Translations under genes and position numbers: made by a program | Shown here: positions 38,092 through 53,238 of the stretch, one piece after another | How positions within the stretch are numbered: position 1 is the stretch's first letter | Layout of the letters: each line of letters opens with the position of its first letter | Assembly: GCF_042688385.1 (NCBI RefSeq) | Contig: NZ_JBHUPY010000007.1 | Coordinates: forward strand, 258,110 to 322,109 | DNA length: 64,000 nucleotides | Origin: Herpetosiphon sp. NSE202 | GTDB taxonomy: Bacteria; Chloroflexota; Chloroflexia; Chloroflexales; Herpetosiphonaceae | Reading direction: 5' to 3' | Notes under the pieces: generated by a model | Seen by the model: the letters and a program-made list of their open reading frames with translations, nothing else | Told to the model about the DNA's origin: nothing | The model's database searches: none

Positions 38092-38174
38092 GCCGCATCA
38101 CTGCCTTCGCCTCTGGCTTCAGCTTCCCAAGCCCTTAAACACAAGTTTCGTGTTGGGCATTAGGAGGACTATAG

Positions 38175-40397
38175 ATGCCAGTTTCTCAAAAAAATACCCG
38201 CGATGGCGTAAGTGATCGCGCAAACAATCGCAAATCATTCTCTGCTAGCAGCGGCGGCAGCGGTGGCAACCGTGGCGGCGGCGGTGGCGGTGGTGGCAAC
38301 CGTGGCGGCGGTGGCGGCGGCGGTGGCAACCGCAATCGGCCTCAATCGTCTGGTGGCGCACGCCCTACCCGTAGCGGCGAAGACGACCGCAATCGCTCTG
38401 GTGGCGGTGGTGGCGGCGGCGGTAACCGCAATAATAATAACCAAAACCGTAGCGGTGGCCCTGGTGGTAATCGTGGCGGTGGTGGTGGCGGCGTTCCTCC
38501 ACGCGGCGGTGGAGTTCCACCTCGTGGCAGCGGCGGACGCGGCCAAAACAACAATCAACAAGGTGGCCGTGGCCGTGGCACGCCAATGATGGCTCGCCCC
38601 GTTGCGCCTGCGCGCCCACGTGGCCCAGTCGAGCTTGCTCCGGTTATGACCGTGCGCGAGCTATCAGAAGCGCTGAGCGTCGGCGCAGCTGATATTATCA
38701 AAGAAATGCTCAAGCAAGGCATTTTGGCAAATATTAATCAACAGCTTGATTATGAAACTGCCGCTGTAATTGCCGCAGAATTTGATATTGAAACCACCGA
38801 GCATGTGCCTGAAAGCATGGCTGGCTTGGTTGATGATATTGGCGATGCGCTACGCGCTGAAACCGCTGAAAATCTCAAAACCCGCCCACCAGTTGTCACA
38901 ATCATGGGTCACGTTGACCACGGTAAAACCAAATTGCTCGATGCAGTGCGCTCAACCCGCGTTGCTGAAGGCGAAGCTGGCGGGATTACCCAACACATTG
39001 GGGCTTACCAAGTTGAAATCCATGGCCGCAAAATTTCGTTCTTGGATACACCAGGTCACGAAGCGTTTACCGCCATGCGTGCCCGTGGTGCAACCGTCAC
39101 CGATATTGTTATTTTGGTGGTTGCAGCAGACGACGGCGTGATGCCGCAAACGGCAGAAGCTATCGCCCACGTTAAGGCCGCTGGCGTGCCAATGATTGTG
39201 GCCATCAACAAAATCGACGTGCCTGGGGCCAACCCCGACCGCGTGCGCCAACAATTGGCGGTCGAAGGCATTGCGACTGAAAGCTGGGGCGGCGACGTTC
39301 CTGATGTCGAAATTTCGGCCAAGCACAAGAAAAATATCGATGGCTTGCTGGATATGGTGTTGTTGGTTGCCGATTTGCAAGAATTGAAGGCCAACCCCGA
39401 TAAACCAGCCATCGGTACAATCGTAGAAGCTGAGCTCGACAAAGGTCGTGGCCCAGTCGCAACGGTGCTGATTCAAAACGGTACGTTACGTCAAGACGAT
39501 ATTGTGGTGGTGGGTGCAACCCACGGCAAGATTCGGGCAATGTTTACCGATATTGGCCGCCGGATTCGCATCGCCGAACCTGCAACGCCAGTCTCGATCA
39601 TTGGGCTTTCGGAAGTGCCACAAGCTGGCGATATTTTGCAAGTGCTTGATGATTCGCGGATTGCCCGTGAAGTGGCAACCCAACGCCAACGCCAACGCCA
39701 GATGGAACACTTGGCCAACCAGCTTGGTAAAGCAACCACGCTTGATGAAGTCTACAAACAAATTCAAGCAGGCAAAATCAAAGATCTCAATATTATTCTC
39801 AAAGCCGACGTACAAGGCTCAATTGGGGCTATCGAACACTCGTTGGCGCAGTTGAACGAGAAACAAAGCGAGATTCAAATCAAGATTTTGCACCGTGGGA
39901 CGGGCACAATCAGCGAGTCGGACGTAAGCTTGGCCGTGGCATCGCACGCGATTATCATTGGCTTTAATGCTCGCCCCGATGCTGCTGCTCGCCGTAGCGC
40001 CGAAGCAAACGGGATTGATATTCGCTTCTACAACATCATTTACCAATTGATCGAAGACCTGAACAAGGCCATGATCGGGATGCTCGATCCTGAGATCAAG
40101 GAAGTGACCGATGGCTTTGCAGAAGTGCGCAATACCTTCCGCTTGCCATCACGCGAAGTTGTGGCTGGTTTGATGATGATCGACGGCAAGGTTACCCGCA
40201 ACTCATTGGTACGGGTCTTGCGCTCAGGCGTTGTGTTGCACGACGGACGGATTGGCTCGCTACGCCGTTTCAAAGACGACGTGCGCGAAGTGCTGTCTGG
40301 CTACGAGTGTGGGATGCAGGTCGATGGCTTCAACGACATCGAAGCTGGCGATACCATGGAATTCTATCGCAAAGAAAAGATTATTCGCACCTCGTAA
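38175..40397 (+). CDS. infB: Translation initiation factor IF-2 with a Gly/Arg/Asn-rich N-terminal low-complexity region
   Basis: G-domain ..[18 protein letters not shown].., ..DTPGHEAFT.., ..NKID... The N-terminal region ([14 protein letters not shown])n is encoded by 27-nt tandem repeats (38255-38335). Confidence 0.9.
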
Positions 40398-40496
40398 GCG
40401 CTGATTAACCGTTAGAGTGGAGACAAATAGATCTGTTGTTTGTAACAGGTGTGTTTGTCTCCATTCTGCATTATTAATCCTGTGGGAGTGACTGTT

Positions 40497-40877
40497 ATGG
40501 CAAAAGGTAAACGAGTTGAACAAGTTGCCGAAGAAATTAAAGTCATTTTGAGCAACGCAATTCAATTTGAAATTCAAGACCCACGCTTGGGCTTTGTAAC
40601 CCTCACCAGCGTGAATGTTAGCCCAGATTTGTATCATGCCAATATCAACGTCAGTGTGATGGGCGATGATGCTGCCCGCAAAGATTCGATTGCAACCCTT
40701 GATCGGGCTAAAGGCTTTTTGCGGCGTGAACTTGGCCAGCAAATGAAGTTACGGGCTGTGCCAGAGTTGCATTTTCATCTTGACGTGACGATTGATACAC
40801 GCCAACATATGGACAAGCTGTTCAACCAAGTGGACGAAGAACGGCGGGTTAATCCACCACAACTAGACGACGAATAA
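40497..40877 (+). CDS. rbfA: Ribosome-binding factor A
   Basis: MAKGKRVEQVAEEIKVILSNAIQFEIQDPRLGFVTLTSVNVSPDL.. The ATG is at 40497 after GGGAGTG. Confidence 0.85.
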   Translation: MAKGKRVEQVAEEIKVILSNAIQFEIQDPRLGFVTLTSVNVSPDLYHANINVSVMGDDAARKDSIATLDRAKGFLRRELGQQMKLRAVPELHFHLDVTIDTRQHMDKLFNQVDEERRVNPPQLDDE

Positions 40878-40888
40878 GGAATACCACG

Positions 40889-41881
40889 ATGCTGTATACC
40901 ACTATTCAACAAGCGGCTCCGGCCCTGCGTGATGCCATGACCGCCGCACGCCATATTTTGGTTACCTCGCATATCAACCCCGATGGCGATGCAGTTGGCT
41001 CAAGTATTGGGCTAACCCGTATTTTACGGGCGATGGGCTGTCGAGTAACCATGGTTTTGCCAACCGATCTGCCAAGTTTGGCGGTGGTTTTGCCCGATGC
41101 GCCAGAGGTTGGGGTTTATAGCCAAGGGGCAAGTTTGCCCGCCGATGTTGATTTAGTGGTGTTGGTCGATACTGGCAGCATCTCGCGGATTGAGCCGATT
41201 TTTAGTGCTGAACGGGCCTATTTGGCTCAGCGCCCATTGTTGGTGATTGATCATCACGCCACCAATAGCGGCGAGGGCTTTTTAAATTTGGTGATGACCG
41301 AAGCCGCCGCAACTTGCGAAATTTTGGGCTTGCTGGCGCAAGCTTGGAACCAAGCAATTGATGCAGAAACTGCAACCGCCTTGTTGATGGGCTTGGTGAC
41401 TGATACCCAAAGCTTCCAAACCTCGCATACCAGCCCGCGCACCTTGCGCGTTGCCGCCGATTTATTGGCGCTTGGCGGGCGATTAAACGAGGTGATGCGC
41501 TCGATGATGTATGGCAAGCCGTTTGCCCATGCCAAAGCTTTGGGCATGGCAATTGAGCGCATGCACGACGAAGGCGATATTATCTGGACGGAATTTACCC
41601 AAGCCATGCAACAAGGCACTGGTGCAGATGATGAAGCTGGTGATGAAATTACGGCCTATCTCAGCCGCGTTGCCACAGCCAAAGCCTATGTGCTGTTTAA
41701 AGAGCGACGTGATGGCACGGTGAAAATCAGCATGCGCTCGCAACCTGGGATTGATGTTGGCAGCGTGGCCCATAATTTGGGTGGTGGCGGCCATCGCGAA
41801 GCTGCTGGCGCAACCTTGCAGATGGGCTTAGCCGAAGCCCGCGAGTTGGTGCTGAGCACGTTACGGTCAGCCTTAGCCTAA
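40889..41881 (+). CDS. nrnA: DHH/DHHA1 phosphoesterase (NrnA-like bifunctional oligoribonuclease / pAp phosphatase)
   Basis: ..HINPDGDAVGS.., the DHH motif ..LVIDHHATN.. and the DHHA1 motif ..GGGGHREAAG.. Confidence 0.8.
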   Translation: MLYTTIQQAAPALRDAMTAARHILVTSHINPDGDAVGSSIGLTRILRAMGCRVTMVLPTDLPSLAVVLPDAPEVGVYSQGASLPADVDLVVLVDTGSISRIEPIFSAERAYLAQRPLLVIDHHATNSGEGFLNLVMTEAAATCEILGLLAQAWNQAIDAETATALLMGLVTDTQSFQTSHTSPRTLRVAADLLALGGRLNEVMRSMMYGKPFAHAKALGMAIERMHDEGDIIWTEFTQAMQQGTGADDEAGDEITAYLSRVATAKAYVLFKERRDGTVKISMRSQPGIDVGSVAHNLGGGGHREAAGATLQMGLAEARELVLSTLRSALA

Positions 41882-41921
41882 TTAATAGAAAGGTTGTGGC
41901 TCGTTAATTGACGAGCCATGT

Positions 41922-42803
41922 TTGCGTATGCTGCATGGATTTTTAAACATCGATAAACCTCAGGGTATGACCTCAACCGACGTGGTGCGGGTGGTTAAAC
42001 GAACTGCGCGCATGAAACGGGTTGGCCATGGTGGTACACTCGATCCAATGGCCACGGGCGTGCTGCCGATTGCTTTGGGCAATGCCACCCGTCTGCTGGA
42101 ATATTTGCAAGAGGAAGATCACAAAGCCTATACGGCAACCCTGCGGCTCGGCATCACCACCGATAGCGACGATGCAGAAGGCGCTGTAATTGCTGAATCG
42201 GCGGTTCCTGCGCTTGATGCAGAATTGATTGAGCGGGTGTTGAGCCAATTTCGTGGTGCAATCGAGCAAGTGCCACCGCAATATGCAGCGATTCGGGTTG
42301 ATGGCAAACGCATGTATGAATATGCTCGCGAAGGCACACATATCGAGTTGCCAGCCCGCCCAATCACGATCGAGCAGCTTAATTTGTTGGCTTGGGATGC
42401 GCAGCAATTAACGATTGCGGTAGATTGCAGCAAAGGCACCTATATTCGCGCCTTGGCCCGCGATATTGGAGCCGTGCTTGGGTGTGGCGCGCACCTAACT
42501 GCCTTGCGACGTACCCGAGCAGGAGCCTTTGATTTGAGCACAAGCATTGCGCTGGCTGAGCTTGATCAACAGCCTGAGGTTTTGGCTGCGGCGCTTTTGC
42601 CACCACAGGCAGCAATTGCCAACTGGCCCTTAATCTCGCTGCATGAGGCGGTTATAGCCGATGTGCGTATGGGGCGGGTTGTACAGGTTGAAAGCGCTGC
42701 CGAACGGATTGGCTTGCTTGATCAAGCTGGTCAATTAGTGGCGATTGCGGTATTGCGCGAAACTGGCTATCAGCCAATCAAGGTTTTTGCCCCAGAAGCG
42801 TAA
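41922..42803 (+). CDS. truB: tRNA pseudouridine(55) synthase TruB
   Basis: ..GFLNIDKPQGMTSTDVV.., ..GHGGTLDPMATGVLPIALGNATR.. where D is catalytic, and a C-terminal PUA-like region. Confidence 0.9.
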   Translation: MRMLHGFLNIDKPQGMTSTDVVRVVKRTARMKRVGHGGTLDPMATGVLPIALGNATRLLEYLQEEDHKAYTATLRLGITTDSDDAEGAVIAESAVPALDAELIERVLSQFRGAIEQVPPQYAAIRVDGKRMYEYAREGTHIELPARPITIEQLNLLAWDAQQLTIAVDCSKGTYIRALARDIGAVLGCGAHLTALRRTRAGAFDLSTSIALAELDQQPEVLAAALLPPQAAIANWPLISLHEAVIADVRMGRVVQVESAAERIGLLDQAGQLVAIAVLRETGYQPIKVFAPEA

Positions 42804-42804
42804 A

Positions 42805-42995
42805 GCAAATTATGAAGGATGAATTATGAGGGATGAAGCACAAAGCAACCTAATAATCTGTGGCTAAAAACCTTCTTTGTGCACTTCATGGTTTCTATAA
42901 TTCATCCCTCGCAATTACGTAAACCTGACCCCTGATCTCTAGACCCTGACCCCTCTGAACTCTGGGCTGCTATTCATCATCCCTCATCCTTCATA
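42805..42995. repeat. Mosaic intergenic repeat cluster F (atgaaggatgaattatgagggatg words, cctgacccctga words, catccctcatccttcat)
   Basis: It shares the word families of clusters A, B and C. Confidence 0.7.
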
Positions 42996-42999
42996 ATTA

Positions 43000-43494
43000 C
43001 TACTGGGTTGTGTATGGCAAAAAGACGAAATTGGCAGGCTCAACCGAGAAGGTGCGGGTAATGCTCTGGCCTTGGTAAGTGCTGCAATCATAGGCAACAT
43101 GCCAATTCCATGGCCCCAGTGCATCGGCTGGCAGCGCTTGCGTTTGAGTATAGCTGAAGGTAAACGGGACGATTGCTTGGCCTTGGCCCATAACCCCATT
43201 GAAAACATAATTCCGATCGCCAGGCCCATCGAGATGGATCGTGTGTCCACAGCGCGGGCCTTGCCAATTAAATGTCCATTTGTTGGGGGCAACTGGCTGG
43301 GGCAAAATGGCTTCATTGGCAGGCGACTGGAGGGTAGGCTCTGGTCCAGGCGTTGCGGTGGGGCCGCCAAATGAGTGGGCAAGGCTGCTTGTGGTTGCTG
43401 AAGTGGCATGGTTCGGCGCAAGCAAGGTTCCGACGATGAACAGTCCGATCAGCCCTATCACAATGATAGTGCCTGTGCGTTCGAGAAAATTCAT
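43000..43494 (-). CDS. Hypothetical secreted/membrane-anchored protein
   Basis: N-terminal TM/signal MNFLERTGTIIVIGLIGLFIVGTLLA. No motif recognised. Confidence 0.5.
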   Translation of the reverse strand: MNFLERTGTIIVIGLIGLFIVGTLLAPNHATSATTSSLAHSFGGPTATPGPEPTLQSPANEAILPQPVAPNKWTFNWQGPRCGHTIHLDGPGDRNYVFNGVMGQGQAIVPFTFSYTQTQALPADALGPWNWHVAYDCSTYQGQSITRTFSVEPANFVFLPYTTQ

Positions 43495-43559
43495 ACCATC
43501 CTCCTAAACTGTAGCAGTGGCTGAATCAGCAACAGCCATATGCTCCAACTTGATAGTAA

Positions 43560-43975
43560 TTTTTTCGAATGCAAGAAGCAATAGCCGATCTAGGCTAGAT
43601 TATCGTTTTGATCCACGAAGCGCACGAAGAGCACGAAGGACGAAAACCACGAAGAACGCGAAGAGCACGAATTAATTATTCCAATAGCCAATAGCTGTAC
43701 TGGTTCATTAGGTTGACAACCAAGTGCATGCCCTCACCTCCAGCCCTTCTCCCACTGAACGCGGGCGAGGGGAGCACTGATTCAGCGGTTCCCCCTCGCC
43801 CGTTCGACGGACGAGGGGGCTAGGGGGTGAGGGGGAATCGTCGTTAACGCAATGAACCATTACACATGGCCAATAGCCAATAGCCCTGAGTTCTCTGCGC
43901 CTCTGCGTTAAATTTTTGACTTTTGACTTTTGACTTTTGATTTTAGATCCCAATCAAAAAAAACCCTCTGGAATG
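43560..43975. repeat. Mosaic intergenic repeat cluster G including a MITE-like palindrome (43741-43846), at the left flank of the low-GC island
   Basis: ccacgaag x5, atagccaatagc x2, ccctcacctccagcccttctcccactgaacgcgggcgagggg .. ccccctcgcccgttcgacggacgagggggctagggggtgaggggg, ctctgcgcctctgcgttaaa, ttttgac x4. Confidence 0.8.
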
Positions 43976-44021
43976 TATCTAACTCTAGTAATGCGTATTT
44001 ATGCTAGAGTTGGAGGCTTTT

Positions 44022-44894
44022 ATGCCAGTTGTTGGTACCGCCCCAGTAAAGCCCTGTCCGCAATGTCAATTTCGTAATAACACTCATTCAACATTTTGTC
44101 AGAATTGTGGCCAAGTATTAGCCAAGCCGCAAGCAGTTCCATCAACCCAGCCTGTGGCCAAGCCAATTGCGCAGTCACCTGTTAATCAATCTTCGACCCA
44201 GCCTGTGGCCAAGCCAATTGCGCGTCCACCTGTTAATCAACTTTTAGGTGCACCAGCAACAAGACCACTTACACCGCCAGCACCCTATCAAACCAGCCCA
44301 ATTGCAAGCTCAACTCAATCAACTCATCAAAAACTCTTGTTTCAATTGCAAATGTTTGCTTACGGTTTAATTGGGCTTGGCTCAATTATGCTGATTTGTT
44401 TTATTTTTGGGCCATTTGTACAAAACAATATTGCTGGTGGCTTTGGCGATACCCTAGGTGCCAGTATGGGAAGCAGTTTTAGCGCACTCCATATGTTGGG
44501 AATGCTTTTAGGTGTTCTATTTGATGATCGCTTTTCAAATGGTAGCATTTTTATAGTTTTGGGGATTATTGCGATTCTTCTATTGCCAATTTTTGCTGTT
44601 ATCGTAATTATGACGGGATCAAAAATGTATAAAGGCTTTACGTTGAATCATCCACCCCAACCAATCAAGCTCCTCCAAATTGGCAGTGGAATTATGCTTG
44701 GCTTTTGGGGCTTTCTTTACTCAGCATTTAATTTCCGATTAAGCGTTAATGGAAACCTTGCAAAAATTTTTGGAATCGAAGGCGACATTGGTTTGGGATG
44801 GGGATTTACATTCAGCGTGATTTCAATCTTAGTGCTATTTATTAGCTGTATTTGGTATAAAAATACAGTTTTAAAACTTTCAGTTACCCCATAA
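44022..44894 (+). CDS. Zinc-ribbon membrane protein: N-terminal CxxC..CxxC ribbon, Pro/Gln-rich region with a 17-aa tandem duplication, and 4 TM segments. First gene of the low-GC island.
   Basis: MPVVGTAPVKPCPQCQFRNNTHSTFCQNCGQV.. STQPVAKPIA(Q/R)(S/P)PVNQ appears twice, encoded by a 51-nt tandem duplication at 44145-44246. Hydrophobic helices follow. The ATG is at 44022 after GGAGG. Confidence 0.6.
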   Translation: MPVVGTAPVKPCPQCQFRNNTHSTFCQNCGQVLAKPQAVPSTQPVAKPIAQSPVNQSSTQPVAKPIARPPVNQLLGAPATRPLTPPAPYQTSPIASSTQSTHQKLLFQLQMFAYGLIGLGSIMLICFIFGPFVQNNIAGGFGDTLGASMGSSFSALHMLGMLLGVLFDDRFSNGSIFIVLGIIAILLLPIFAVIVIMTGSKMYKGFTLNHPPQPIKLLQIGSGIMLGFWGFLYSAFNFRLSVNGNLAKIFGIEGDIGLGWGFTFSVISILVLFISCIWYKNTVLKLSVTP

Positions 44895-44904
44895 AGGAGC
44901 AATT

Positions 44905-45573
44905 ATGGAATATGGATTAGAAAGCCCAACTAATTACGAACAGAAATGTTTGTGTGTTTTGGTCGTCGATACATCAGGTTCGATGCAGGGTAAACCAATT
45001 GACGAATTAAACCAAGGTCTCCAATTATTTCATCAAGATATTAGTAATAATTTTTCGACTGCTCAACGCTTAGAAATTTGCTTAATTGAATTTAATAGTC
45101 AAGTTGATTGTATTGTTGAGCCAAGTTTAATTGATCATTTTGATATGCCAATTTTAGCGGTAGCCGGAACAACAAAACTCGTTGATGGAGTACGTTTGGC
45201 TATTCATAAAGTCCAAGAACGCAAAGAATGGTATCGCTCAACAGGTCAGCCATATTATCGGCCATGGATTATTTTGATGACTGATGGCGCGCCTGATAAA
45301 GACCAAGATATTCCAGGTTTAGCCCAAGAGCTTCAATATGGGGTCGCCAATAAACAATTTACGTTCTTCCCAATCGGGGTTCAAGGAGCAGATCTTAACA
45401 TGCTTCGGCGTATTAGCACGCCAGATCGCCCACCAATGATGTTGCAAGGCTTACGGTTTGAAGCATTTTTTGACTGGTTAAGCGCAAGTTTAGCTATGGT
45501 CGCAAGCTCAACTGATGGCCAAGTAATCAATTTGCCGCCAACGAGTGGTTGGGGAATTCTTCCAGTGTCCTAA
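44905..45573 (+). CDS. vWA domain protein, TerY-like
   Basis: ..CLCVLVVDTSGSMQGKPIDEL.. is the MIDAS DxSxS. ..ILMTDGAPD.. At about 220 aa it is the size and architecture of TerY. Confidence 0.75.
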   Translation: MEYGLESPTNYEQKCLCVLVVDTSGSMQGKPIDELNQGLQLFHQDISNNFSTAQRLEICLIEFNSQVDCIVEPSLIDHFDMPILAVAGTTKLVDGVRLAIHKVQERKEWYRSTGQPYYRPWIILMTDGAPDKDQDIPGLAQELQYGVANKQFTFFPIGVQGADLNMLRRISTPDRPPMMLQGLRFEAFFDWLSASLAMVASSTDGQVINLPPTSGWGILPVS

Positions 45574-45630
45574 AATTTGTTGGGGTTGGTTGGTTTGGCT
45601 CCAGCTGACCCCTTTTGCAAGGAAGAGACG

Positions 45631-47031
45631 ATGAAACAGTATCAACGATCACTCATTTTGGTGTTATCTGCGCTGCTTTTGCTCAGCAGTCTATTAATTG
45701 TACTGCTCTTTATCCGATTAAACACCACCAATCCGCAGGCAACTCCAATAATTCGATCAACAACTATACCACCAACGTTAACCAGTTCAGGCTCAATTAC
45801 AACAACCCAATCGCTACCTGTTGCGGCACCAATTGAATCAATCATTACCACTATTGCAACTGTTGCGCCAAAACCTGATAATGCCAAACTGCAACCAAAC
45901 GCTCCTAAACCCGCTACAACTCAAGCCCCCACTAGTTTTGGAGCAACATTGCTCAAAAGCCTGCTTGGATTGGGTGTGCTTGCGATTGGCGGATACTTAT
46001 TATGGGTGCGTTTGACTGGTTCGCCTCAGTTCGAACCCCAACGGCGTTTGATGCCGAAACCGCTGCTTAAGCAAAATCCAGCGGAGATTGCCTTGCCACC
46101 AGAGAGCAATCCAACTCCACCTAGGTCGCGACCAGTCGCTGAACCGAGCGCGTCTAGCAATTTGAAACCAGCAGTTGACCCGAGTTTGCGGAATGCCAAC
46201 TATCAATTTCATGTATTTTGTGAATCGATCATTGGTAAGAGCCATAGTCAACATGGTTTATTATGTCAAGATTATTCACAACATCAAATGTTGGGTGAAG
46301 GTTGGGGTGTTGCAGTGATAGCTGATGGTTTGGGTAGCCGCAAATTATCACATCTTGGCTCTGAATTTGTGGTTAAAGCAGCATGCACACAATTATTAGA
46401 GCTGGTGAAAAAGCATTCTTGGTATGAAACCAAGCAATTACCGAATCTGCAGCAATGGCAGAGCTATGTAATTTATATTTTCCAAGATATTTATGCAAAA
46501 TTACAAAAGAAGGCCCAAGCAGAAAAGCAATCAGTTCATGAATATGCTTCTACATTAATTAGTGTCATTTATAGCCCAATTGGCATTTTGGTAGCACATA
46601 TTGGCGATGGTCGGGCTGGCTATAGCGATCGTCATGGCCAATGGCATTCAATGATTACGCCACATAAAGGTGAAGAAGCCAACGAGGTTATGCCATTTAC
46701 TGCCGATCAGGTTTGGAAAAATCCATCTGAATTAATCGAATGTCGAGTCATTAACGACCACATTAATGGATTTGTATTAATTTCTGATGGCTGTGAAAAA
46801 CATACATTTCAATGTAGCCAATTTGATCAAGCAACTCAGCACTGGCACGATCCAAATCGACCACATCAACAATTTTTTGATCGTTTGCAGCAGCTATTTC
46901 GTGAAAAAAAACAAAAAGGCCAAAGTCTCCAAGATTTACAGCCTACGTTTAAAGATATTCTAGAACGAGGTACTACCGGTTTTGCCAATGAGCCAGATGA
47001 TAAAACCATGATTCTTGGTTTGTGGATCTAA
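45631..47031 (+). CDS. Transmembrane PP2C-family Ser/Thr phosphatase (two TM helices flanking a Thr/Pro-rich extracytoplasmic segment; cytoplasmic PP2C domain)
   Basis: TM1 is ..LILVLSALLLLSSLLIVLLFI.. TM2 is ..GLGVLAIGGYLLWV.. PP2C motifs are ..GVAVIADGLGS.., ..VAHIGDGRAGY.. and ..VLISDGCEK.. The ATG is at 45631 after AGGAAGAG. Confidence 0.7.
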   Translation: MKQYQRSLILVLSALLLLSSLLIVLLFIRLNTTNPQATPIIRSTTIPPTLTSSGSITTTQSLPVAAPIESIITTIATVAPKPDNAKLQPNAPKPATTQAPTSFGATLLKSLLGLGVLAIGGYLLWVRLTGSPQFEPQRRLMPKPLLKQNPAEIALPPESNPTPPRSRPVAEPSASSNLKPAVDPSLRNANYQFHVFCESIIGKSHSQHGLLCQDYSQHQMLGEGWGVAVIADGLGSRKLSHLGSEFVVKAACTQLLELVKKHSWYETKQLPNLQQWQSYVIYIFQDIYAKLQKKAQAEKQSVHEYASTLISVIYSPIGILVAHIGDGRAGYSDRHGQWHSMITPHKGEEANEVMPFTADQVWKNPSELIECRVINDHINGFVLISDGCEKHTFQCSQFDQATQHWHDPNRPHQQFFDRLQQLFREKKQKGQSLQDLQPTFKDILERGTTGFANEPDDKTMILGLWI

Positions 47032-47053
47032 GCATACGAGAAGGATATCAATA

Positions 47054-48271
47054 ATGAGTCTTATCTATCAAACCAAACAGCATACCCACGTTCAGCTTGA
47101 TGAATCCAAGCCGCTAGGAAAAGGTGGCGAGGGTTGTGTTTATTCTATCATTAACACTGCTACTTATCCTAATCATTGTGCGAAAATTTTCTATCCTAAC
47201 CGATTAACTCCTGAATTAGAGCAAAAGATTAATTTTATGGTTGATAATCCACCTGATACTCTTACCAGTACTAATTATCGGATTGCATGGCCAATTGCTG
47301 CATTGTATCAAAAACAAAAATTTTGTGGTTTCATTATGCCAAAAGCTTTTGATCAGAGCATTGGGCTTGAACGATTAACACAACCTCATATTCATATCAA
47401 AAATATTGATCAGTCATGGATTAAGTATCAACGATCTGATAAACAAGGGGTTATTAATTGCTTTAAAGTTTGTGTTAATATTGCTTTCACGGTTAATCTT
47501 ATTCATCAAATGCAAAAATATATTTTTGTCGATTTAAAACCTCAGAATATATTAGTCACATTAAATGGATTTATTTCGATTACCGATATTGATTCAATGC
47601 AGGTTTATGATGATAAGAAGAATCTCTATTATAAATCGGTCGTTTCAACAGCTGAATATTCGCCTCCAGAGTATCGTAACTATCTTAAAAGTGGAAGCAT
47701 TATTGCAAAAGAGTGGGATAATTTCTCATTAGCAGTTATTTTCTATCAATTGATTACAGGAATTCATCCTTTTGCTGCAACCTTTGGTGATAAATTTCAT
47801 GATTCAACAACGATTGATGACCATATTAGCCGTAGTTTATTTGTATTTGGTAATCACAAGCATGCAATTGTTCAGTTGCCAAAGTTACATAAATATTACG
47901 AAAGAATGCCAGCTGATATTCAACAATTATTCCTGCGTGCGTTCGATAAACCAGTTGCTCAGCGACCTAATGCAGAGGAATGGGGAAAAAATCTGTTTGA
48001 TTTAGTTTCGCAGAAACAACATTTAATTGCACATAATCCAGATATTAGTCCGGCTTCACAGCCCAAAAAACCAGTAGGAGGATTAAATCAAGCAAAAAAA
48101 ATCAACTCAGCATTAAAACCAGTACAACAGCAAGCGACTCAGCCACGCAATAATTCGGCTCCGATTCAAATATCACAGCCAATTAATGCTCAGCGTAAAA
48201 GTTATGCTTGGATCGGCTGGTTGATTGTTGTAATTGCGATTATTGGAGTTATTTTGCTGGCGCAAGCCTAG
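47054..48271 (+). CDS. Eukaryotic-like Ser/Thr protein kinase with a C-terminal TM anchor
   Basis: ..LGKGGEGCVYSI.. is the Gly loop. ..HCAKIF.. carries the catalytic Lys. ..IFVDLKPQNILV.. is the catalytic loop. ..ITDIDSMQ.. is DFG-like. ..TAEYSPPEY.. is APE-like. C-terminal ..WIGWLIVVIAIIGVILLA.. It overlaps the PP2C gene end by 17 nt. Confidence 0.75.
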   Translation: MSLIYQTKQHTHVQLDESKPLGKGGEGCVYSIINTATYPNHCAKIFYPNRLTPELEQKINFMVDNPPDTLTSTNYRIAWPIAALYQKQKFCGFIMPKAFDQSIGLERLTQPHIHIKNIDQSWIKYQRSDKQGVINCFKVCVNIAFTVNLIHQMQKYIFVDLKPQNILVTLNGFISITDIDSMQVYDDKKNLYYKSVVSTAEYSPPEYRNYLKSGSIIAKEWDNFSLAVIFYQLITGIHPFAATFGDKFHDSTTIDDHISRSLFVFGNHKHAIVQLPKLHKYYERMPADIQQLFLRAFDKPVAQRPNAEEWGKNLFDLVSQKQHLIAHNPDISPASQPKKPVGGLNQAKKINSALKPVQQQATQPRNNSAPIQISQPINAQRKSYAWIGWLIVVIAIIGVILLAQA

Positions 48272-49173
48272 AGGCCAATAATGCCGCGCCGCCGTAGAAA
48301 GGGCAGAATGCTTTGCTCAAGCGGGCGATCGCTGCGAATGCCAGCATAGGTCGCCCCATAGCGCTGACACATTTGCTCGTGCATGCGCACCCAACGCACC
48401 AGTTTTTCGCGATAATCTTTTTGGGTTTGTTGATCAAGCTCAAGCGCCAGCACTTGGCCTGTTTCACTATCTTCAAATTCAACTGGTCCGCTTAGCGTGG
48501 GCTTGATTTCTTCGGGATGCAGCAGGTGCAGCACCACAACTTGCCAGACTGGCGGGGCAGCCGCCCGCAGCAATGGCTCTAAATCGCTCGTCCATAGATC
48601 GGAGATGATCAAGAGCATACCGCCAGAACTGCGGCGAACTGCTTGAGTAATTGGCGTAAATGAGGTTTGTTCGGCCCAATTCAAATTGCTCAAATAGCGC
48701 AGCAAATCGGGGCCGCGTGCGCGACTAACCGCCGGCCCAAACGGCTTGATCAATTTGCTGGTAAACGGCCAAATCGTGGTTTGATCGTTTGAGGTAAGGC
48801 CGAGATAGCCGAGCATTGCCGCCAAACGCAGCGCATAGCGACCTTTGTGCAGCTCGCCTTGGCCCCAATCCAACGAGGCTGAACAATCTAAGGCAATCGT
48901 AATATTAATATCTTGTTCAGTTTCGCCAAGCTTCACATGCAAATCTTCATGGCGTGCATAGGCAAACCAATCGACGTGGCGAAGGTCGTCGCCTGGGCTA
49001 TAGGCGCGATGATCGCTAAATGTTGGCGCGGGCAAGCGCCGGCGCGAGGCATGTTCGCCGCTCAAGCCCCCGCGTAAGGTACGCCGCGAACGCAAGGCAA
49101 GGCGTTCGATCCGCGCTAAAAACTCAGGGTTAAATAGGTCGCCACTAGCGCCCGAAGTAGTCTTGAATCGCAT
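48268..49173 (-). CDS. DUF58 family protein (vWA-like; normally a MoxR-operon component)
   Basis: ..LARIERLALRSRRTLRGGLSGEHASRRRLPAPTFSDHRAYSPGDDLRHVDW.. is the characteristic DUF58 N-terminal motif. The start is at MRFKTT (49173). Confidence 0.75.
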   Translation of the reverse strand: MRFKTTSGASGDLFNPEFLARIERLALRSRRTLRGGLSGEHASRRRLPAPTFSDHRAYSPGDDLRHVDWFAYARHEDLHVKLGETEQDINITIALDCSASLDWGQGELHKGRYALRLAAMLGYLGLTSNDQTTIWPFTSKLIKPFGPAVSRARGPDLLRYLSNLNWAEQTSFTPITQAVRRSSGGMLLIISDLWTSDLEPLLRAAAPPVWQVVVLHLLHPEEIKPTLSGPVEFEDSETGQVLALELDQQTQKDYREKLVRWVRMHEQMCQRYGATYAGIRSDRPLEQSILPFLRRRGIIGL

Positions 49174-50479
49174 CGCGTAGCTCCGCAGGAATATTGGATG
49201 GATCGCTAATATCGCTGGGCACGCTGCCACCGCTACCGCCAGCATTGCCACCACCAGCACCCTCACCACCAGGCAAGGTGATTGAAGTATCGCCGCCCGT
49301 TCCTGGAGTCGTTTCGCCAGCAGCAGGTGCTTCCGGCAAGCTTACATCGGGGCCAAGCGCAGCGCTCGGTGGCGGCGATGAACGGCTGCCAGTGCCGGGA
49401 TTATTGCCAGCGCCGTTGTTGCTGGGCTGGCCATTTTGGTTTTCGCCTGGCTGGCCTTGTTGCGGTTGGTTGCCAGCTTGTGGCTCGTTGCCAGCTTGGC
49501 CATTCTGCTCGCCATTGGCTAAATCTGGTTGGGCATTATCAAGCTGATCGGTCAGTTGGGCCAAATCTTCAAGCGCATCGGCACCATTTTGCGGGTTGCC
49601 ACGCAGTTGTTCTGCATCGCTACGCAAGCGTTCGGCCACCTCTGGCTGATTCTGCAATTGTTCGGCTGCTTGTTCAAGACCATCAGCAATTTCGTTGCGG
49701 GTTTGGGGCGATAGCTGATCAGCTTGATCGGCGAGTTTGGACAATTCTTCGGCTGCTTGTTGCACATCACCACGGCGCAAAGCATCGGCAGCGGCCCGCG
49801 TTGCACCATTATCACTTAAGCCATCGGCCAAGGCATCGGCAATTTCTTGGCCTTCGGGGCTGATTTCTGGTTGTTGATCAGGCTGATTGCCAACTGGCTG
49901 ATTGGGATCAGCAGCAGGATCTTGCTCAGTGGCAGGCTGTTGCGGCGGTTCAGTCGTGGTCAAACTCGCCAATTCGCGCAATGGCTCGGTGGTCGGCGCA
50001 GGCAAGCCAGCATCAATTTGGCCCAACACAAACAAACCAGTAGCCAACACCGCAGCCAAGCCCAAACTTTGCCATTCAAGCGCAATCGGCGCAATCACGC
50101 TAGCAGTGGCATCGCGGGCAACGCTAGGCAAACGGCGCTTGGCACGTTCAATATTCACAGCGTGAAAGCCACCACGCTGGTCTTGAAATTCGCTAGCAGT
50201 GCTCAACTGGGCATTTAATTGATAATGCTGATCGAGCATTTGCACAAATTCGGCTGGGGCAAGAATTGATTTCCAAGCGTACACTCCGCCTAATGCCGCC
50301 ACCAAAATCACAATTAAGCCCAACATTGGCCACGAAAGTGGCCAAGCTAGCCAGTTTCGGCCAATCAGGCCAAGGCATAAGACCGCCAAGGTCATCCAAG
50401 CGGCGCGAATTAATAAGCGCTGGCGTTGGCGCTTTTGAACTTCGACATATAATTCAAGAATTTGTTGGGTCAGATTCAT
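49145..50479 (-). CDS. Membrane protein with a long Gln/Asn/Pro/Gly-rich low-complexity C-terminal region, upstream partner of DUF58
   Basis: Two N-terminal TM helices, then an acidic coiled-coil-like segment and a Q/N/G/P-rich tail. The ATG is at 50479 after AGGAGCG. Confidence 0.55.
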   Translation of the reverse strand: MNLTQQILELYVEVQKRQRQRLLIRAAWMTLAVLCLGLIGRNWLAWPLSWPMLGLIVILVAALGGVYAWKSILAPAEFVQMLDQHYQLNAQLSTASEFQDQRGGFHAVNIERAKRRLPSVARDATASVIAPIALEWQSLGLAAVLATGLFVLGQIDAGLPAPTTEPLRELASLTTTEPPQQPATEQDPAADPNQPVGNQPDQQPEISPEGQEIADALADGLSDNGATRAAADALRRGDVQQAAEELSKLADQADQLSPQTRNEIADGLEQAAEQLQNQPEVAERLRSDAEQLRGNPQNGADALEDLAQLTDQLDNAQPDLANGEQNGQAGNEPQAGNQPQQGQPGENQNGQPSNNGAGNNPGTGSRSSPPPSAALGPDVSLPEAPAAGETTPGTGGDTSITLPGGEGAGGGNAGGSGGSVPSDISDPSNIPAELRDAIQDYFGR

Positions 50480-50639
50480 GGTGGCGCTCCTAGCCTTGCG
50501 CGCTGGTGAATAGCTGCATGCCCTGAGGCGTGAGAAGGACAACCAAACAGTTGCAATTATGAGTGTACCATAGAATTACAATGGATCGGCCTCTGCTATA
50601 ATTGACAGTTGGAACTGATACATCACCGCAGGAGGATTT

Positions 50640-52646
50640 GTGACTCAAGCACATACACTCGATGAACTGGCCATCAATACAATCCGCATGTTGGCGGTTG
50701 ATGGTGTGCAAGCGGCTAATTCGGGCCACCCAGGCTTACCAATGGGGGCTGCGGCCATGGCTTATGTGCTGTGGACGCGCCACCTCAAACATAATCCGGC
50801 TAATCCAGATTGGGCTGACCGCGACCGCTTTGTGCTGTCGGCGGGCCATGGCTCAATGCTGTTGTATAGTTTATTGCATCTCACGGGCTATAGTGACATG
50901 ACGCTCGATGATTTGAAGAATTTCCGCCAATGGCACAGCAAAACTGCTGGCCACCCAGAATATGGCTATGCTGCTGGGATCGAAACCACGACTGGCCCGC
51001 TTGGCCAAGGCTTTGCAACAGGCGTGGGTATGGCAATTGCCGCCCGTCACTTGGCTGGCACATTCAATCAACCTGAGCTTGAAATCGTCAAGCACCATAT
51101 TTATGCGATTGTCTCCGATGGCGATTTGGAAGAGGGCATTAGCGCCGAAGCTGCTTCGTTGGCAGGCCACCTCAAATTGGGCGAGTTGGTTTATCTCTAC
51201 GATGATAATGAAATTTCGATTGAAGGCGATACCTCAATTGCCTTCACCGAAGATGTGCCAGCGCGTTTCCGCGCCTATGGCTGGCATGTTCAAGAGATCG
51301 ACGGGCTTGATACCGAGCAAGTTGATGCAGCCTTGACCGCCGCCAAAGCAGTGACCGACCAGCCATCGTTGATTGTGGCCCACACCGTGATTGGCTATGG
51401 CTCGCCTAATCGGGCTGGCACGGCCAAAGCGCACGGCGCACCACTCGGCCCCGATGAAGTAAAATTGACCAAAGAAGCCCTCGGCTGGCCGCTCGAACCA
51501 ACCTTCTACGTTCCTGAAGAAGTGTCGGCACATTTCCGCGAGGCCTTAACCAAGGGCGCTGCTGCTGAGCAAGCGTGGAACGAATTGTTCGACCGCTACG
51601 CTGAGGCGCATCCAGCAAAGGCTGCCGACTTCAAGCAACGCATGGCTGGCGAATTACCAGACGGTTGGGATAGCAAGTTGCCAGTTTGGGAAGCTGATGC
51701 CAAGGGCGTGGCAACTCGCAAATCATCAGAAGCAGCGCTCAACGGCTTGGCCGAGCAAATTCCGGCCTTGATTGGCGGCTCGGCAGATTTGGCCGAATCG
51801 ACCTTTACCTTGATTGAGCATGCAGAATCGTTCCAACCAGCAACGCCTCAAGGCCGCAACATGCACTGGGGTATTCGCGAACATGCGATGGTCGCAGCTG
51901 TCAACGGCATGGCCTTGCATGGCGGCACGATTCCCTACGGTGCAACCTTCTTGGTGTTCAGCGATTATTGCCGCGCCTCGATTCGTTTGGCAGCCTTGAT
52001 GGGCATTCGCACGATTCAAGTCTTTACCCACGATAGCATTGGCGTTGGCGAAGATGGCCCAACCCACCAACCAATCGAACACATTCCATCGTTGCGGATT
52101 ATTCCCAATTTGAATGTGATGCGACCTGGTGATGCCAACGAAACCAGCCAAGCCTGGCACGTAGCCGTAACCCACAAAGGCCCAACCTTGCTGGCACTGA
52201 CTCGCCAAAACTTGCCAACCCTTGATCGCAGCCGCTATGCTTCGGCAGAAGGCGTGGCCCAAGGTGGCTATGTGTTGGCTGATAGCGACGGCCAACCAGA
52301 ACTGATTATCATTGCCACCGGCTCGGAATTGCAGCATGCGGTTGCTGCCTACGAGCAATTGAGCGGCGAAGGAGTCAAAGTTCGCGTGGTCAGCATGCCA
52401 TCGACCTTCTTGTTTGATGCGCAGTCGGCGGAATATCGCGAAAGCGTGCTACCCAAGGCTGTGAGCAAACGGATTGCGATTGAAGCTGCCCATCCAGTCA
52501 CGTGGTACAAATATGTTGGCACTGAAGGCGATATTATTGGGATTGATCACTTCGGTGCATCAGCACCAATTAATATTTTGATGAAGGAATTTGGCTTTAC
52601 CGCTGAAAACCTGATTGCCCGCGCCAAGGCCTTATTGGCTAAGTAA
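50640..52646 (+). CDS. tkt: Transketolase
   Basis: ..[14 protein letters not shown].. is the ThDP site. ..[10 protein letters not shown].. ..[19 protein letters not shown].. Confidence 0.9.
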
Positions 52647-52723
52647 TCGTTGCTTGATTGAGCATGTGACGCGAAGTACGAGCAATTCGTGCTTCGCGTT
52701 GTGCTGTTGAAAGGACATAAATC

Positions 52724-53167: not shown

Positions 53168-53180
53168 ATCGCCAATCAAA

Positions 53181-53218
53181 AAAGCCCCGCCCTTGGTTTG
53201 AATCAAGGGCGGGGCTTT
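53181..53218. terminator. Bidirectional terminator between rpiB (+) and the protease gene (-)
   Basis: aaagccccgcccttg gtttgaatc caagggcggggcttt. On the - strand it is followed by UUUUUUG. Confidence 0.7.
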
Positions 53219-53238
53219 GGGCTATTCAGCGCAGCGAT

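What the first reader, a model, noticed from the sequence alone, without database searches (positions are those of the whole stretch)
43980..48271. Low-GC island encoding a TerY-P-type triad (vWA/TerY-like, TM PP2C phosphatase, TM eukaryotic-like Ser/Thr kinase) preceded by a Zn-ribbon membrane protein
Four co-directional, tightly packed genes (44022-48271) have markedly lower GC than the surrounding 52-55% genome and different codon usage. That implies horizontal acquisition. A vWA (TerY-like), PP2C and STK triad matches the 'TerY-phosphorylation' architecture described in comparative genomics of tellurite-resistance and stress systems (Anantharaman, Iyer and Aravind). These triads are rarely annotated functionally. 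Here both the phosphatase and the kinase carry TM anchors and an extracytoplasmic Thr/Pro-rich segment, suggesting a trans-membrane phospho-switch. The island is flanked on the left by mosaic-repeat cluster G, which includes a MITE-like palindrome. On the right it abuts an orphan DUF58 gene; the kinase and DUF58 stop codons overlap by 4 nt.
Basis: partly seen in the sequence, partly recalled or inferred. Interest (0 to 1): 0.8.

Follow-up and report, generated by a model that had tools for sequence, protein, structure and literature searches.

The report
Variable membrane kinase–phosphatase–vWA island
A 4.3-kb AT-rich block in a Herpetosiphon genome encodes a known type of three-protein phosphorylation switch (the TerY-P / E. 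coli YegL-PphC-YegI kind) plus one genus-specific membrane protein, and only some Herpetosiphon species carry it; the finding is correct and well defined but not a new kind of system.

Summary
Four co-directional genes (44022-48271), each with a Shine-Dalgarno motif, form an operon-like block. Its GC is 0.40 and GC3 0.26-0.33, against 0.54 and 0.49-0.58 in the flanks. Genes 2-4 are a MIDAS-intact TerY-like vWA protein, a two-TM PP2C_2 phosphatase and a tail-anchored Ser/Thr kinase. All three are homologous to E. coli YegL, PphC and YegI, in the same gene order as there and in the IncHI2 ter locus. So this is a TerY-P-type triad.

- Only the phosphatase has a predicted extracytoplasmic Thr/Pro loop. 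The kinase has 2 residues beyond its TM.
- The kinase lacks the C-terminal zinc ribbon used in the published triad definition. A generic zinc ribbon sits on gene 1 instead. Gene 1's membrane domain has no detectable relative outside Herpetosiphon.
- The block is a 4,325-bp indel bounded by an 11-12-nt direct repeat at the DUF58 stop codon. It is present in 3 of 6 Herpetosiphon-clade genomes, interleaved on the flank tree.
- Island dS tracks flank dS and dN/dS is below 1. That fits an old resident lost repeatedly, not a recent arrival.

Function (membrane phospho-switch, possibly anti-phage) is inferred, not shown. I rate it a new member of a known kind, of modest interest.

The parts
43944..43954 (.). 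Left copy of the flanking direct repeat (TAGATCCCAAT)
   Evidence: Matches the right copy at 9 of 11 positions. The H. geysericola empty site has one copy joining the left flank directly to the DUF58 3' end. In H. llansteffanensis both copies are a perfect 12-mer, TAGAGGCCAATA.
43955..48268 (+). Body of the low-GC indel (4,325 bp from repeat to repeat); contains only the four genes and a 67-nt leader
   Evidence: Present in NSE202 (this window), H. llansteffanensis and H. aurantiacus. Absent in H. geysericola, H. giganteus and MAG MFD03066. GC 0.398. No integrase or transposase ORF and no tRNA.
43978..44014 (+). Conserved leader hairpin or palindrome whose 3' arm overlaps the first 3 nt of the gene 1 Shine-Dalgarno (GGAGG, 44012-44016)
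   Evidence: RNA fold -21 kcal/mol, z=-4.3, 0 of 200 shuffles as stable. Two stem pairs carry compensatory double changes in the H. aurantiacus lineage, and one sequence has one mismatch. Only about 2 independent lineages, so this is suggestive only.
44022..44894 (+). Gene 1: 290-aa membrane protein. N-terminal C4 zinc ribbon (C12, C15, C26, C29), ~70-aa Pro/Gln/Ala-rich linker, ~4 TM helices
   Evidence: Weak Pfam DZR/Zn_Ribbon_1 hits. Hydropathy. Orthologues only in Herpetosiphon. A profile search of 1.84 billion representatives hit only the ribbon. dN/dS 0.22-0.36. The AF2 model was unusable, pLDDT 41.6.
44905..45573 (+). Gene 2: 222-aa TerY/YegL-like vWA protein with intact MIDAS (D22-x-S24-x-S26, T90, D127)
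   Evidence: Pfam VWA E=1.7e-10. 41% identity to E. coli YegL, E=9e-44. 26.7% identity to IncHI2 TerY. MIDAS and the C-terminal F-x-W-x-S-x-S motif are invariant across YegL, TerY and relatives. dN/dS 0.05-0.06.
45631..47031 (+). Gene 3: 466-aa membrane PP2C_2 phosphatase. TM1 (~7-28), 72-aa Thr/Pro-rich loop, TM2 (~104-126), Pro-rich linker, catalytic domain (~196-466)
   Evidence: Pfam PP2C_2 E=1.7e-38. Full-length alignment to E. coli PphC, E=1e-13, with the Asp of CQD, ADG (the PphC D46 equivalent), GDG, SDG and DD motifs conserved. Hydropathy. The same two-TM plus Ser/Thr-loop layout occurs in relative L016.
47054..48271 (+). Gene 4: 405-aa YegI-like Ser/Thr kinase. Kinase domain (~1-320), Gln/Pro-rich linker, C-terminal tail-anchor TM (382-403). 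No zinc ribbon.
   Evidence: Pfam Pkinase E=4.4e-19. 26% identity to YegI over residues 18-334, E=6e-18. Gly-rich loop GKGGEG, K44, catalytic D160 (DLKPQN), and D178-I-D180-S181 in place of DFG, as in YegI's DSD-S. Hydropathy. No CxxC anywhere in the protein.
48269..48279 (.). Right copy of the flanking direct repeat (TAGAGGCCAAT). It overlaps the kinase stop codon (48269-48271) and the DUF58 stop codon (48268-48270, minus strand).

Best explanation
What it is. A TerY-P-type triad of the E. coli YegL-PphC-YegI kind, extended by a Herpetosiphon-specific zinc-ribbon membrane protein. It lies on a 4.3-kb compositionally foreign block that is a presence/absence polymorphism in the genus.

Shown here:
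- The four genes form a tight operon-like unit.
- The vWA protein has an intact metal-binding MIDAS site.
- The PP2C and kinase keep their catalytic residues. The kinase has the YegI-type DxD-S motif.
- All four genes are under purifying selection.
- Three of the four proteins are predicted to be membrane-anchored with catalytic or ribbon domains on one side. By charge distribution that side is the cytoplasm.

Inferred from E. coli biochemistry (YegI autophosphorylates on Ser; PphC dephosphorylates it). The tail-anchored kinase autophosphorylates and phosphorylates partner(s). The membrane PP2C resets it. The soluble TerY-like vWA protein acts as a metal-dependent adaptor or sensor that binds a partner through its MIDAS.

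Inferred more weakly. Gene 1 is a lineage-specific membrane partner (scaffold, target or effector). Its cytoplasmic zinc ribbon may stand in for the ribbon that other triad kinases carry at their C-terminus.

Physiological role. Most likely a conditionally useful stress or anti-phage module, as shown for a TerY-P system by Gao et al. 2020. That fits its patchy distribution.

History. Acquired once from a low-GC donor before the split of H. aurantiacus from the NSE202 group. Afterwards inherited with the flanks and lost repeatedly, plausibly by recombination between the 11-12-nt direct repeats or by replacement with an empty allele.
For: Domain calls. Homology of all three triad proteins to YegL, PphC and YegI and to the IncHI2 ter-locus TerY/PP2C/kinase genes, with the same vWA->PP2C->kinase order. 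The same order in 7 unrelated loci: L002, L016, L017, L019, L020, L021, L022.

MIDAS and family C-terminal motif invariant. Catalytic motifs conserved. PphC dephosphorylates YegI (bioRxiv 10.1101/303594). YegI is a membrane kinase with an essential DSD-Ser (bioRxiv 10.1101/819920). TerY-P is reported as an anti-T7-like-phage system (PMC7699616, PMC11090510).

Topology. dN/dS 0.05-0.36 for all four genes. Presence/absence at the identical site. Direct repeats. Island carriers interleaved on the flank tree.

Island dS versus H. llansteffanensis is 0.25-0.36 for g2-g4 (g1 0.70), against flank dS of 0.21-0.43. Versus H. aurantiacus it is 1.0-1.7 against 0.48-1.19. The nearest vWA relatives outside the genus are mostly in low-GC Bacteroidota and in metagenomic contigs of 34-43% GC.
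Against: - No experimental data exist for this locus or for any Herpetosiphon triad.
- The kinase lacks both the C-terminal zinc ribbon of the published triad definition and the OB-fold of the experimentally validated defence version. Transfer of the anti-phage function is therefore by analogy only.
- The neighbours are housekeeping genes (TruB, transketolase), not a defence island.
- PADLOC gave no TerY-P hit. This is uninformative, because genuine TerY, YegL and PphC also hit nothing in this copy.
- Gene 1's link to the triad rests only on co-inheritance, shared composition and tight spacing.
- Island dS versus H. aurantiacus is somewhat higher than flank dS, so allele exchange is not excluded.
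- Hydropathy-based topology is a prediction.
Confidence: 0.6

Rival explanations
1. The module is an ordinary membrane-associated Ser/Thr signalling unit. It would regulate host physiology (growth phase, envelope, gliding or predation behaviour, metal stress) and would have no role in phage defence or conflict.
For: Housekeeping neighbours. In E. coli the homologous yegL-pphC-yegI locus has no known defence role and is barely expressed (bioRxiv 10.1101/819920, 10.1101/303594). Contexts of related triads are mixed: TonB receptor and TPR in L017, kinases and FHA in L020. The kinase lacks the OB-fold of the validated defence version.
Against: Dispensable in half of the sampled genus. Foreign composition. 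Fast-evolving accessory gene and linkers. Some related triads sit next to STAND/NB-ARC NTPases, restriction genes or resolvases. A TerY-P system was shown to protect against T7-like phages (PMC7699616).
Confidence: 0.3
2. The island was gained recently and independently in NSE202, H. llansteffanensis and H. aurantiacus by site-specific insertion at an 11-12-nt target at the DUF58 stop codon. The direct repeat would then be a target-site duplication.
For: Direct repeats flank the island and a single copy is found in the empty sites of H. geysericola and H. giganteus. Carriers are interleaved with non-carriers on the flank tree. GC3 remains about 0.30 in all three carriers.
Against: No recombinase, transposase or tRNA lies in or next to the island. 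Island divergence mirrors host divergence: H. llansteffanensis is close and H. aurantiacus is far, with dS similar to the flanks. The repeat decays with host distance: perfect in H. llansteffanensis, 9/11 in NSE202, degenerate in H. aurantiacus. That pattern is expected for one old event. Gene 1 is found nowhere outside the genus, so there is no visible external donor pool for the four-gene unit.
Confidence: 0.12
3. Gene 1 is an unrelated hitchhiker. It would be a lineage-specific membrane protein that merely shares the transcript and has no functional tie to the triad.
For: No homologue accompanies triads in other phyla. Its ribbon is of the generic Zn_Ribbon_1/DZR class. Its membrane domain diverges fast, 53-54% identity within the genus.
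Against: It lies inside the same indel, with the same low GC3 (0.32), 10 nt from gene 2. It is retained under purifying selection (dN/dS 0.22-0.36) in all three carriers, and its ribbon and C-terminus are invariant. It carries the only zinc ribbon in a system whose relatives have one on the kinase. An unrelated 4-TM accessory protein sits inside an Anaerolineae triad, so membrane add-ons recur.
Confidence: 0.25
4. The low GC is not a sign of foreign origin. It would be maintained intrinsically, for example by selection for AT-rich codons or low expression, in a native gene set.
For: GC3 is still about 0.30 in lineages separated by dS>1. That is surprising if host mutation pressure were free to ameliorate it.
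Against: The nearest relatives of the most conserved protein outside the genus are mostly in low-GC Bacteroidota, at 55-65% identity. The block is an indel with flanking repeats. The dinucleotide signature is also deviant. My attempt to measure amelioration directly was uninformative.
Confidence: 0.1

Closest known systems
E. coli yegL-pphC-yegI locus (vWA protein YegL, PP2C-like phosphatase PphC, membrane Ser/Thr kinase YegI)
   Same: All three proteins are homologous over their full domains (41%, 26% and 26% identity; E=9e-44, 1e-13, 6e-18). Gene order is the same. The kinase has the non-canonical DxD-Ser in place of DFG and is membrane-anchored without an extracytoplasmic sensor domain. The phosphatase keeps the residue equivalent to PphC D46 (bioRxiv 10.1101/819920, 10.1101/303594).
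   Different: [quoted passage not shown] Here the kinase is 405 aa and tail-anchored, with no Cys motif. PphC is a soluble 253-aa protein, whereas the phosphatase here has two N-terminal TM helices and a Thr/Pro loop. E. coli has no gene 1 equivalent. The kinase catalytic loop here (DLKPQN) is closer to canonical than YegI's.
TerY-P triad of tellurite-resistance (ter) loci and CoCoNuT systems (Anantharaman, Iyer and Aravind 2012, as summarised in PMC11090510)
   Same: TerY-like vWA, PP2C and Ser/Thr kinase in that order. The vWA shares MIDAS and a C-terminal F-x-W-x-S-x-S motif with IncHI2 TerY.
   Different: There are no ter genes (TerD/Z/A/B/C), no TerY-C domain protein and no McrBC/CoCoNuT genes nearby. 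The kinase lacks the C-terminal zinc ribbon named in the definition. Identity to plasmid TerY is only about 26%.
TerY-P anti-phage system of Gao et al. 2020 (kinase with C-terminal OB-fold)
   Same: The same three-component logic, as a small stand-alone cassette with patchy distribution.
   Different: The kinase here ends in a low-complexity linker and a TM helix, with no room for an OB-fold. No sequence-level comparison was possible, because the PADLOC copy has no model that recognises even genuine TerY or YegL. Defence activity is untested.
Bacteroidota/Chloroflexota membrane triads (e.g. Mariniradius sediminis L002, L017, L016, L019-L021)
   Same: These are the closest sequence relatives: vWA 50-65%, PP2C 33-42%, kinase 36-44% identity. 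They have membrane-anchored phosphatases, including the two-TM plus Ser/Thr-loop layout. Membrane kinases include at least six tail-anchored forms without a ribbon.
   Different: The L002 and L017 kinases carry kinase-ZnR-TM-coiled coil-beta domain. None has a gene 1 homologue. Accessory genes differ from locus to locus.

Membership tests
TerY-P triad | TerY-like vWA protein with a MIDAS metal site | tested here: met
   Pfam VWA E=1.7e-10. 41% identity to YegL and 26.7% to IncHI2 TerY. D-x-S-x-S, T and D of MIDAS, plus the C-terminal F-x-W-x-S-x-S motif, are invariant in the alignment with YegL and two TerY proteins. JGI labels 55-65%-identical relatives 'YegL'.
TerY-P triad | PP2C-family phosphatase encoded next to the vWA gene | tested here: met
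   PP2C_2 E=1.7e-38. Full-length alignment to PphC with conserved acidic motifs. 57 nt downstream of the vWA gene.
TerY-P triad | Ser/Thr kinase of the YegI type encoded next to the phosphatase | tested here: met
   Pkinase E=4.4e-19. E=6e-18 to YegI. Shared DxD-S motif. 22 nt downstream of the phosphatase gene.
TerY-P triad | Zinc ribbon fused to the C-terminus of the kinase (definition in PMC11090510) | tested here: not met
   There is no CxxC anywhere in the kinase. A low-complexity linker occupies the position where the L017 and L002 kinases have a full CxxC...CxxC ribbon, and YegI and the IncHI2 kinase have a single CxxC. A ribbon is present on the separate gene 1. None of the 38 nearest kinase relatives has the ribbon either, so the feature is not universal in this clade.
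TerY-P triad | Association with ter (TerD/TerZ/TerC) genes or tellurite resistance | tested here: not met
   No TerD-family or other ter genes lie within about 10 kb. The resistance phenotype is not testable here. Triads are known to occur without ter genes (E. coli yeg locus).
Gao 2020 TerY-P anti-phage system | Kinase with a C-terminal OB-fold | tested here: not met
   The 85 residues after the kinase domain are a Gln/Pro-rich linker plus one TM helix.
Gao 2020 TerY-P anti-phage system | Protection against phage on expression | not testable with these tools
   This needs plaque assays. The PADLOC scan was uninformative.
E. coli YegL-PphC-YegI module | Phosphatase dephosphorylates the autophosphorylated kinase | not testable with these tools
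   Shown for E. coli only (bioRxiv 10.1101/303594). Here only the catalytic residues are conserved.
E. coli YegL-PphC-YegI module | Membrane-anchored kinase without an extracytoplasmic sensor domain | tested here: met
   Predicted tail anchor at residues 382-403 of 405. The topology differs from the two-pass YegI (bioRxiv 10.1101/819920). This is a hydropathy prediction only.
Genomic island (horizontally acquired block) | Composition deviating from the host genome | tested here: met
   GC 0.398 against at least 0.498 in all other 4.3-kb segments. GC3 0.26-0.33 against 0.49-0.58. The dinucleotide distance is the largest in the window.
Genomic island (horizontally acquired block) | Presence/absence polymorphism among close relatives with a precise empty site | tested here: met
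   Present in 3 and absent in 3 Herpetosiphon-clade genomes at the same site. The H. geysericola junction is exact.
Genomic island (horizontally acquired block) | Flanking direct repeats | tested here: met
   11-nt repeat with 9/11 identity here, and a perfect 12-mer in H. llansteffanensis.
Genomic island (horizontally acquired block) | Own mobility genes (integrase or transposase) or a tRNA target | tested here: not met
   The four proteins match no integrase or transposase family. There is no tRNA or tmRNA in 38000-54000.

The most novel reading that the evidence does not exclude
The four genes form an obligate four-component, membrane-embedded variant of the TerY-P system. In it, the zinc-ribbon function normally fused to the kinase has moved to a newly evolved polytopic membrane protein (gene 1). 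Gene 1 would serve as the phospho-regulated effector, for example a membrane-permeabilising or abortive-infection pore, or as the sensor. Translation would be gated by the conserved leader hairpin that overlaps its Shine-Dalgarno. If true, this would give the TerY-P family, whose output is unknown, its first identifiable effector.
Probability: 0.15. Interest if true: 0.6.

Novelty: new member of a known kind. Interest (0 to 1): 0.3.

Why it matters
TerY-P triads are widespread, and one version has been reported to block T7-like phages. What they sense and what they act on is still unknown. This locus adds three things. First, it is a compact natural four-gene version with a dedicated membrane partner. 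Second, it comes with ready-made isogenic-like comparators: sister species with a precise empty site. Third, it is a dated case of a foreign block that has stayed AT-rich through long residence. That makes Herpetosiphon a reasonable place to test triad function, but it does not change what is known about the family.

Tried and rejected
1. PADLOC scan for TerY-P models. There were no hits for the vWA or the PP2C. Genuine IncHI2 TerY and E. coli YegL and PphC also hit nothing, so I rejected this negative as uninformative.

2. Amelioration test. I polarised synonymous AT->GC against GC->AT changes using H. aurantiacus as outgroup. The island gave 63:26 and the flanks 87:101. I rejected this as evidence. 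The outgroup is saturated at island synonymous sites (pS 0.56-0.68), and pure mis-polarisation predicts the outgroup's AT3/GC3 ratio (about 2.3 and 0.9), which is what was observed.

3. AlphaFold2 model of gene 1 from the 3-sequence alignment. Mean pLDDT was 41.6 and pTM 0.23, too poor for any fold search, so none was run.

4. Exhaustive profile search for gene 1, followed by a Pfam scan of the hits. Only generic zinc-ribbon matches came back, with no family for the membrane domain.

5. Rfam scan of 43300-48600 at E<=0.1: nothing.

6. Consensus promoter/terminator scan: no enrichment over shuffles and no site in the leader.

7. The original Anantharaman 2012 paper could not be retrieved. The triad definition is therefore taken second-hand from PMC11090510.

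8. PDB sequence search. The vWA has no relative with a solved structure. The kinase matches only generic eukaryotic kinases.

9. Idea that gene 1's ribbon is a fission product of the kinase ribbon. The spacing differs (CxxC-x10-CxxC against CxxC-x17-CxxC) and there is no detectable similarity, so this remains speculation.

Full report
**1. Observation**

The window is from Herpetosiphon sp. NSE202. Gene 1 and the kinase are 100% identical to NCBI proteins of that strain.

Four co-directional ORFs occupy 44022-48271. The gaps between genes are 10, 57 and 22 nt. The longer TTG/ATG alternatives from the mechanical ORF list are therefore unlikely.

GC drops to 0.31-0.40 across 44250-48250, against 0.52-0.55 on either side. 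Composition per gene:

| Region | GC | GC3 |
|---|---|---|
| Island genes g1-g4 | 0.35-0.42 | 0.26-0.33 |
| Five flanking genes | 0.54-0.55 | 0.49-0.58 |

The block's GC of 0.398 is lower than that of all 51 other 4.3-kb segments of the window (minimum 0.498). Its dinucleotide signature is the most deviant in the window. The 4-nt overlap of the convergent kinase and DUF58 genes is real. No MoxR-type partner lies near DUF58, so calling it an 'orphan' is fair.

**2. What the proteins are**

- Pfam places gene 2 in VWA (E=1.7e-10), gene 3 in PP2C_2 (E=1.7e-38) and gene 4 in Pkinase (E=4.4e-19). Gene 1 has only sub-threshold zinc-ribbon hits, but its CxxC-x10-CxxC is invariant in the three orthologues.
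- Direct BLASTP against the E. coli K-12 yeg locus gives:
  - YegL: 41% identity, E=9e-44.
  - PphC: 26% over its whole length, E=1e-13.
  - YegI kinase domain: 26%, E=6e-18.
- The vWA also matches TerY of IncHI2 ter loci at 26.7% identity.
- The order vWA->PP2C->kinase is shared by E. coli, the IncHI2 ter locus and every related locus I opened.
- In a nine-protein alignment the MIDAS residues (D22, S24, S26, T90, D127) and a C-terminal F-x-W-x-S-x-S motif are invariant from TerY through YegL to this protein.
- The phosphatase keeps the acidic residues of the CQD, ADG (the PphC D46 equivalent), GDG, SDG and DD motifs.
- The kinase has a Gly-rich loop, K44 and the catalytic D160 in DLKPQN. In place of DFG it has D178-I-D180-S181. 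In YegI the corresponding DSD-Ser162 is an essential autophosphorylation site.

The triad assignment is therefore sound.

**3. Topology**

Hydropathy analysis predicts:

- **Phosphatase (gene 3).** TM1 (~7-28), a 72-residue loop with 16 Thr and 12 Pro, TM2 (~104-126), then a Pro-rich linker and the catalytic domain. Positive charges before TM1 and after TM2 place the loop outside.
- **Kinase (gene 4).** One TM at residues 382-403 of 405, so it is a tail anchor with nothing outside.
- **Gene 1.** A ribbon, a ~70-residue Pro/Gln/Ala linker and about four TM helices. The helices were also seen in an otherwise unusable AF2 model.

Membrane anchoring is not special to this locus. [quoted passage not shown] Relatives have the same two-TM phosphatase layout. 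At least six of the 38 nearest kinases are tail-anchored.

**4. Fit to the published definition**

As summarised in PMC11090510, the triad kinase carries a C-terminal zinc ribbon, and the defence version of Gao et al. carries an OB-fold. The Bacteroidota relatives L017 and L002 do show kinase-ZnR-TM-coiled coil-beta domain. YegI and the IncHI2 kinase have a CxxC at that position.

The two Herpetosiphon kinases have a low-complexity linker there and no cysteine motif. None of the 38 closest kinase relatives has a ribbon either. The ribbon criterion is not met, but it is evidently not universal in this clade.

**5. Gene 1**

A word-indexed search of 5.8 billion proteins found only the three Herpetosiphon orthologues. 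A profile search of 1.84 billion representatives hit only the ribbon in other proteins. Those ribbons belong to the generic Zn_Ribbon_1/DZR class.

The membrane domain is thus a genus-restricted orphan. It diverges fast (53-54% identity within the genus) but is under purifying selection (dN/dS 0.22-0.36).

Other triads carry different accessory genes, including an unrelated 4-TM protein inside an Anaerolineae triad. Gene 1's functional tie to the triad is inferred from co-inheritance, shared composition and spacing only.

**6. The island and its history**

I used the DUF58 neighbour to fetch the locus from six Herpetosiphon-clade genomes.

- **Carriers (same site):** NSE202, H. llansteffanensis and H. 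aurantiacus DSM 785.
- **Non-carriers:** H. geysericola, H. giganteus and MAG MFD03066.

In H. geysericola the empty site joins window 43954 directly to 48269. An 11-nt direct repeat brackets the block: TAGATCCCAAT at 43944-43954 and TAGAGGCCAAT at 48269-48279. The right copy overlaps both stop codons. The repeat is a perfect 12-mer in H. llansteffanensis and degenerate in H. aurantiacus. From repeat to repeat is 4,325 bp.

No recombinase or tRNA is present.

On a flank-gene tree, carriers and non-carriers are interleaved: aurantiacus(+), MAG(-), llansteffanensis(+), geysericola(-), then NSE202(+) with giganteus(-). This needs about three losses, or three same-site gains, or allele shuffling.

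Synonymous divergence from NSE202:

| Comparison | Island dS | Flank dS |
|---|---|---|
| vs H. llansteffanensis | 0.25-0.36 (g1 0.70) | 0.21-0.43 |
| vs H. aurantiacus | 1.0-1.7 | 0.48-1.19 |

All dN/dS values are 0.05-0.36. The island's divergence thus mirrors the host's. That favours one old acquisition followed by vertical descent and repeated loss, or replacement by an empty allele, over recent independent arrivals.

The nearest vWA relatives outside the genus (55-65% identity) are mostly Bacteroidota and metagenomic contigs of 34-43% GC. This is compatible with a low-GC donor. The PP2C and kinase are only 33-44% identical to those relatives, so no close donor is in hand.

**7. An unresolved point**

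GC3 is still about 0.30 in lineages separated by dS>1. I tried to measure amelioration by polarising synonymous changes. The outgroup is saturated, and the ratios obtained (2.42 for the island, 0.86 for the flanks) equal what mis-polarisation alone predicts. I draw no conclusion from that test.

**8. Mechanism**

Shown: operon-like packing, intact catalytic and metal-binding residues, purifying selection, and predicted co-localisation at the membrane.

Inferred from E. coli, where PphC dephosphorylates autophosphorylated YegI: a kinase/phosphatase switch, with the TerY-like vWA as a MIDAS-dependent adaptor or sensor.

More weakly inferred: gene 1 as a membrane partner, and a stress or anti-phage role by analogy with Gao et al.. 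The housekeeping neighbourhood and the missing OB-fold and ribbon argue for caution.

**9. Verdict**

Its interpretation is largely right but overstated. This is a new member, with a lineage-specific fourth gene, of a known and already catalogued module. Interest is modest.

Noticed in passing
window 43978-44014 (leader of gene 1): A 13-14-bp hairpin or palindrome lies immediately upstream of gene 1 and overlaps its Shine-Dalgarno. Its fold energy is -21 kcal/mol (z=-4.3). It is conserved in all carriers despite saturated synonymous divergence next door, with two compensatory pair changes in the H. aurantiacus lineage. It could be a translational RNA hairpin or a DNA operator.
   Followed up: partly
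window 43696-43864, with direct repeats at 43681-43695 and 43870-43884: A MITE-like element of about 169 nt. It has 25-nt terminal inverted repeats (80% complementary) and GC-rich internal hairpins, and is flanked by an exact 15-nt direct repeat, CCAATAGCCAATAGC. H. geysericola has no sequence similar to it at the same position. Its terminal repeat is unique in the window, but an internal 53-nt piece recurs at 59808-59859 (96% identity).
   Followed up: partly
window 43606-43671 and 43914-43944; related pieces at 883-932, 7217-7291, 15157-15284, 22017-22041, 29910-29934, 59654-59859, 63704-63757: Short tandem arrays (CACGAAG-type 9/7-mers and TTTTGAC heptamers) and other modules of the left intergenic region recur at several other sites in the window. 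This intergenic region differs strongly between Herpetosiphon species, while the genes on either side are 91-98% identical at protein level within the NSE202 group.
   Followed up: partly
window 43955-48268 and the homologous blocks in L007 and L010: GC3 of the island genes is about 0.26-0.39 in all three carrier species, although they differ by dS>1. The persistence of AT-richness over that much synonymous turnover is unexplained, and the direct test was defeated by outgroup saturation.
   Followed up: partly
L007 15316-15371 (H. llansteffanensis, left junction): H. llansteffanensis has about 55 extra nt between the left direct repeat and the poly-A start of the island. The extra stretch ends in a second degenerate copy of the repeat (TCTAGCTCAATC). 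NSE202 looks like a deletion between the two copies.
   Followed up: no
window 48268-50542 (minus strand): The DUF58 gene is co-oriented with, and in the longest ORFs overlaps, an upstream 465-aa ORF. That ORF has no Pfam family and a long acidic, Gln/Pro/Gly-rich low-complexity C-terminal half. The pair is conserved in all six genomes whether or not the island is present, and no MoxR ATPase lies nearby.
   Followed up: no
L019 1-1038 and 9723-10889; L020 8100-11198; L022 9315-12651: Some related triads sit next to STAND/NB-ARC-type NTPases, AAA_14/DUF4143 genes or a type III restriction res subunit. This suggests conflict-system neighbourhoods in other phyla, unlike the housekeeping context in Herpetosiphon.
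   Followed up: no
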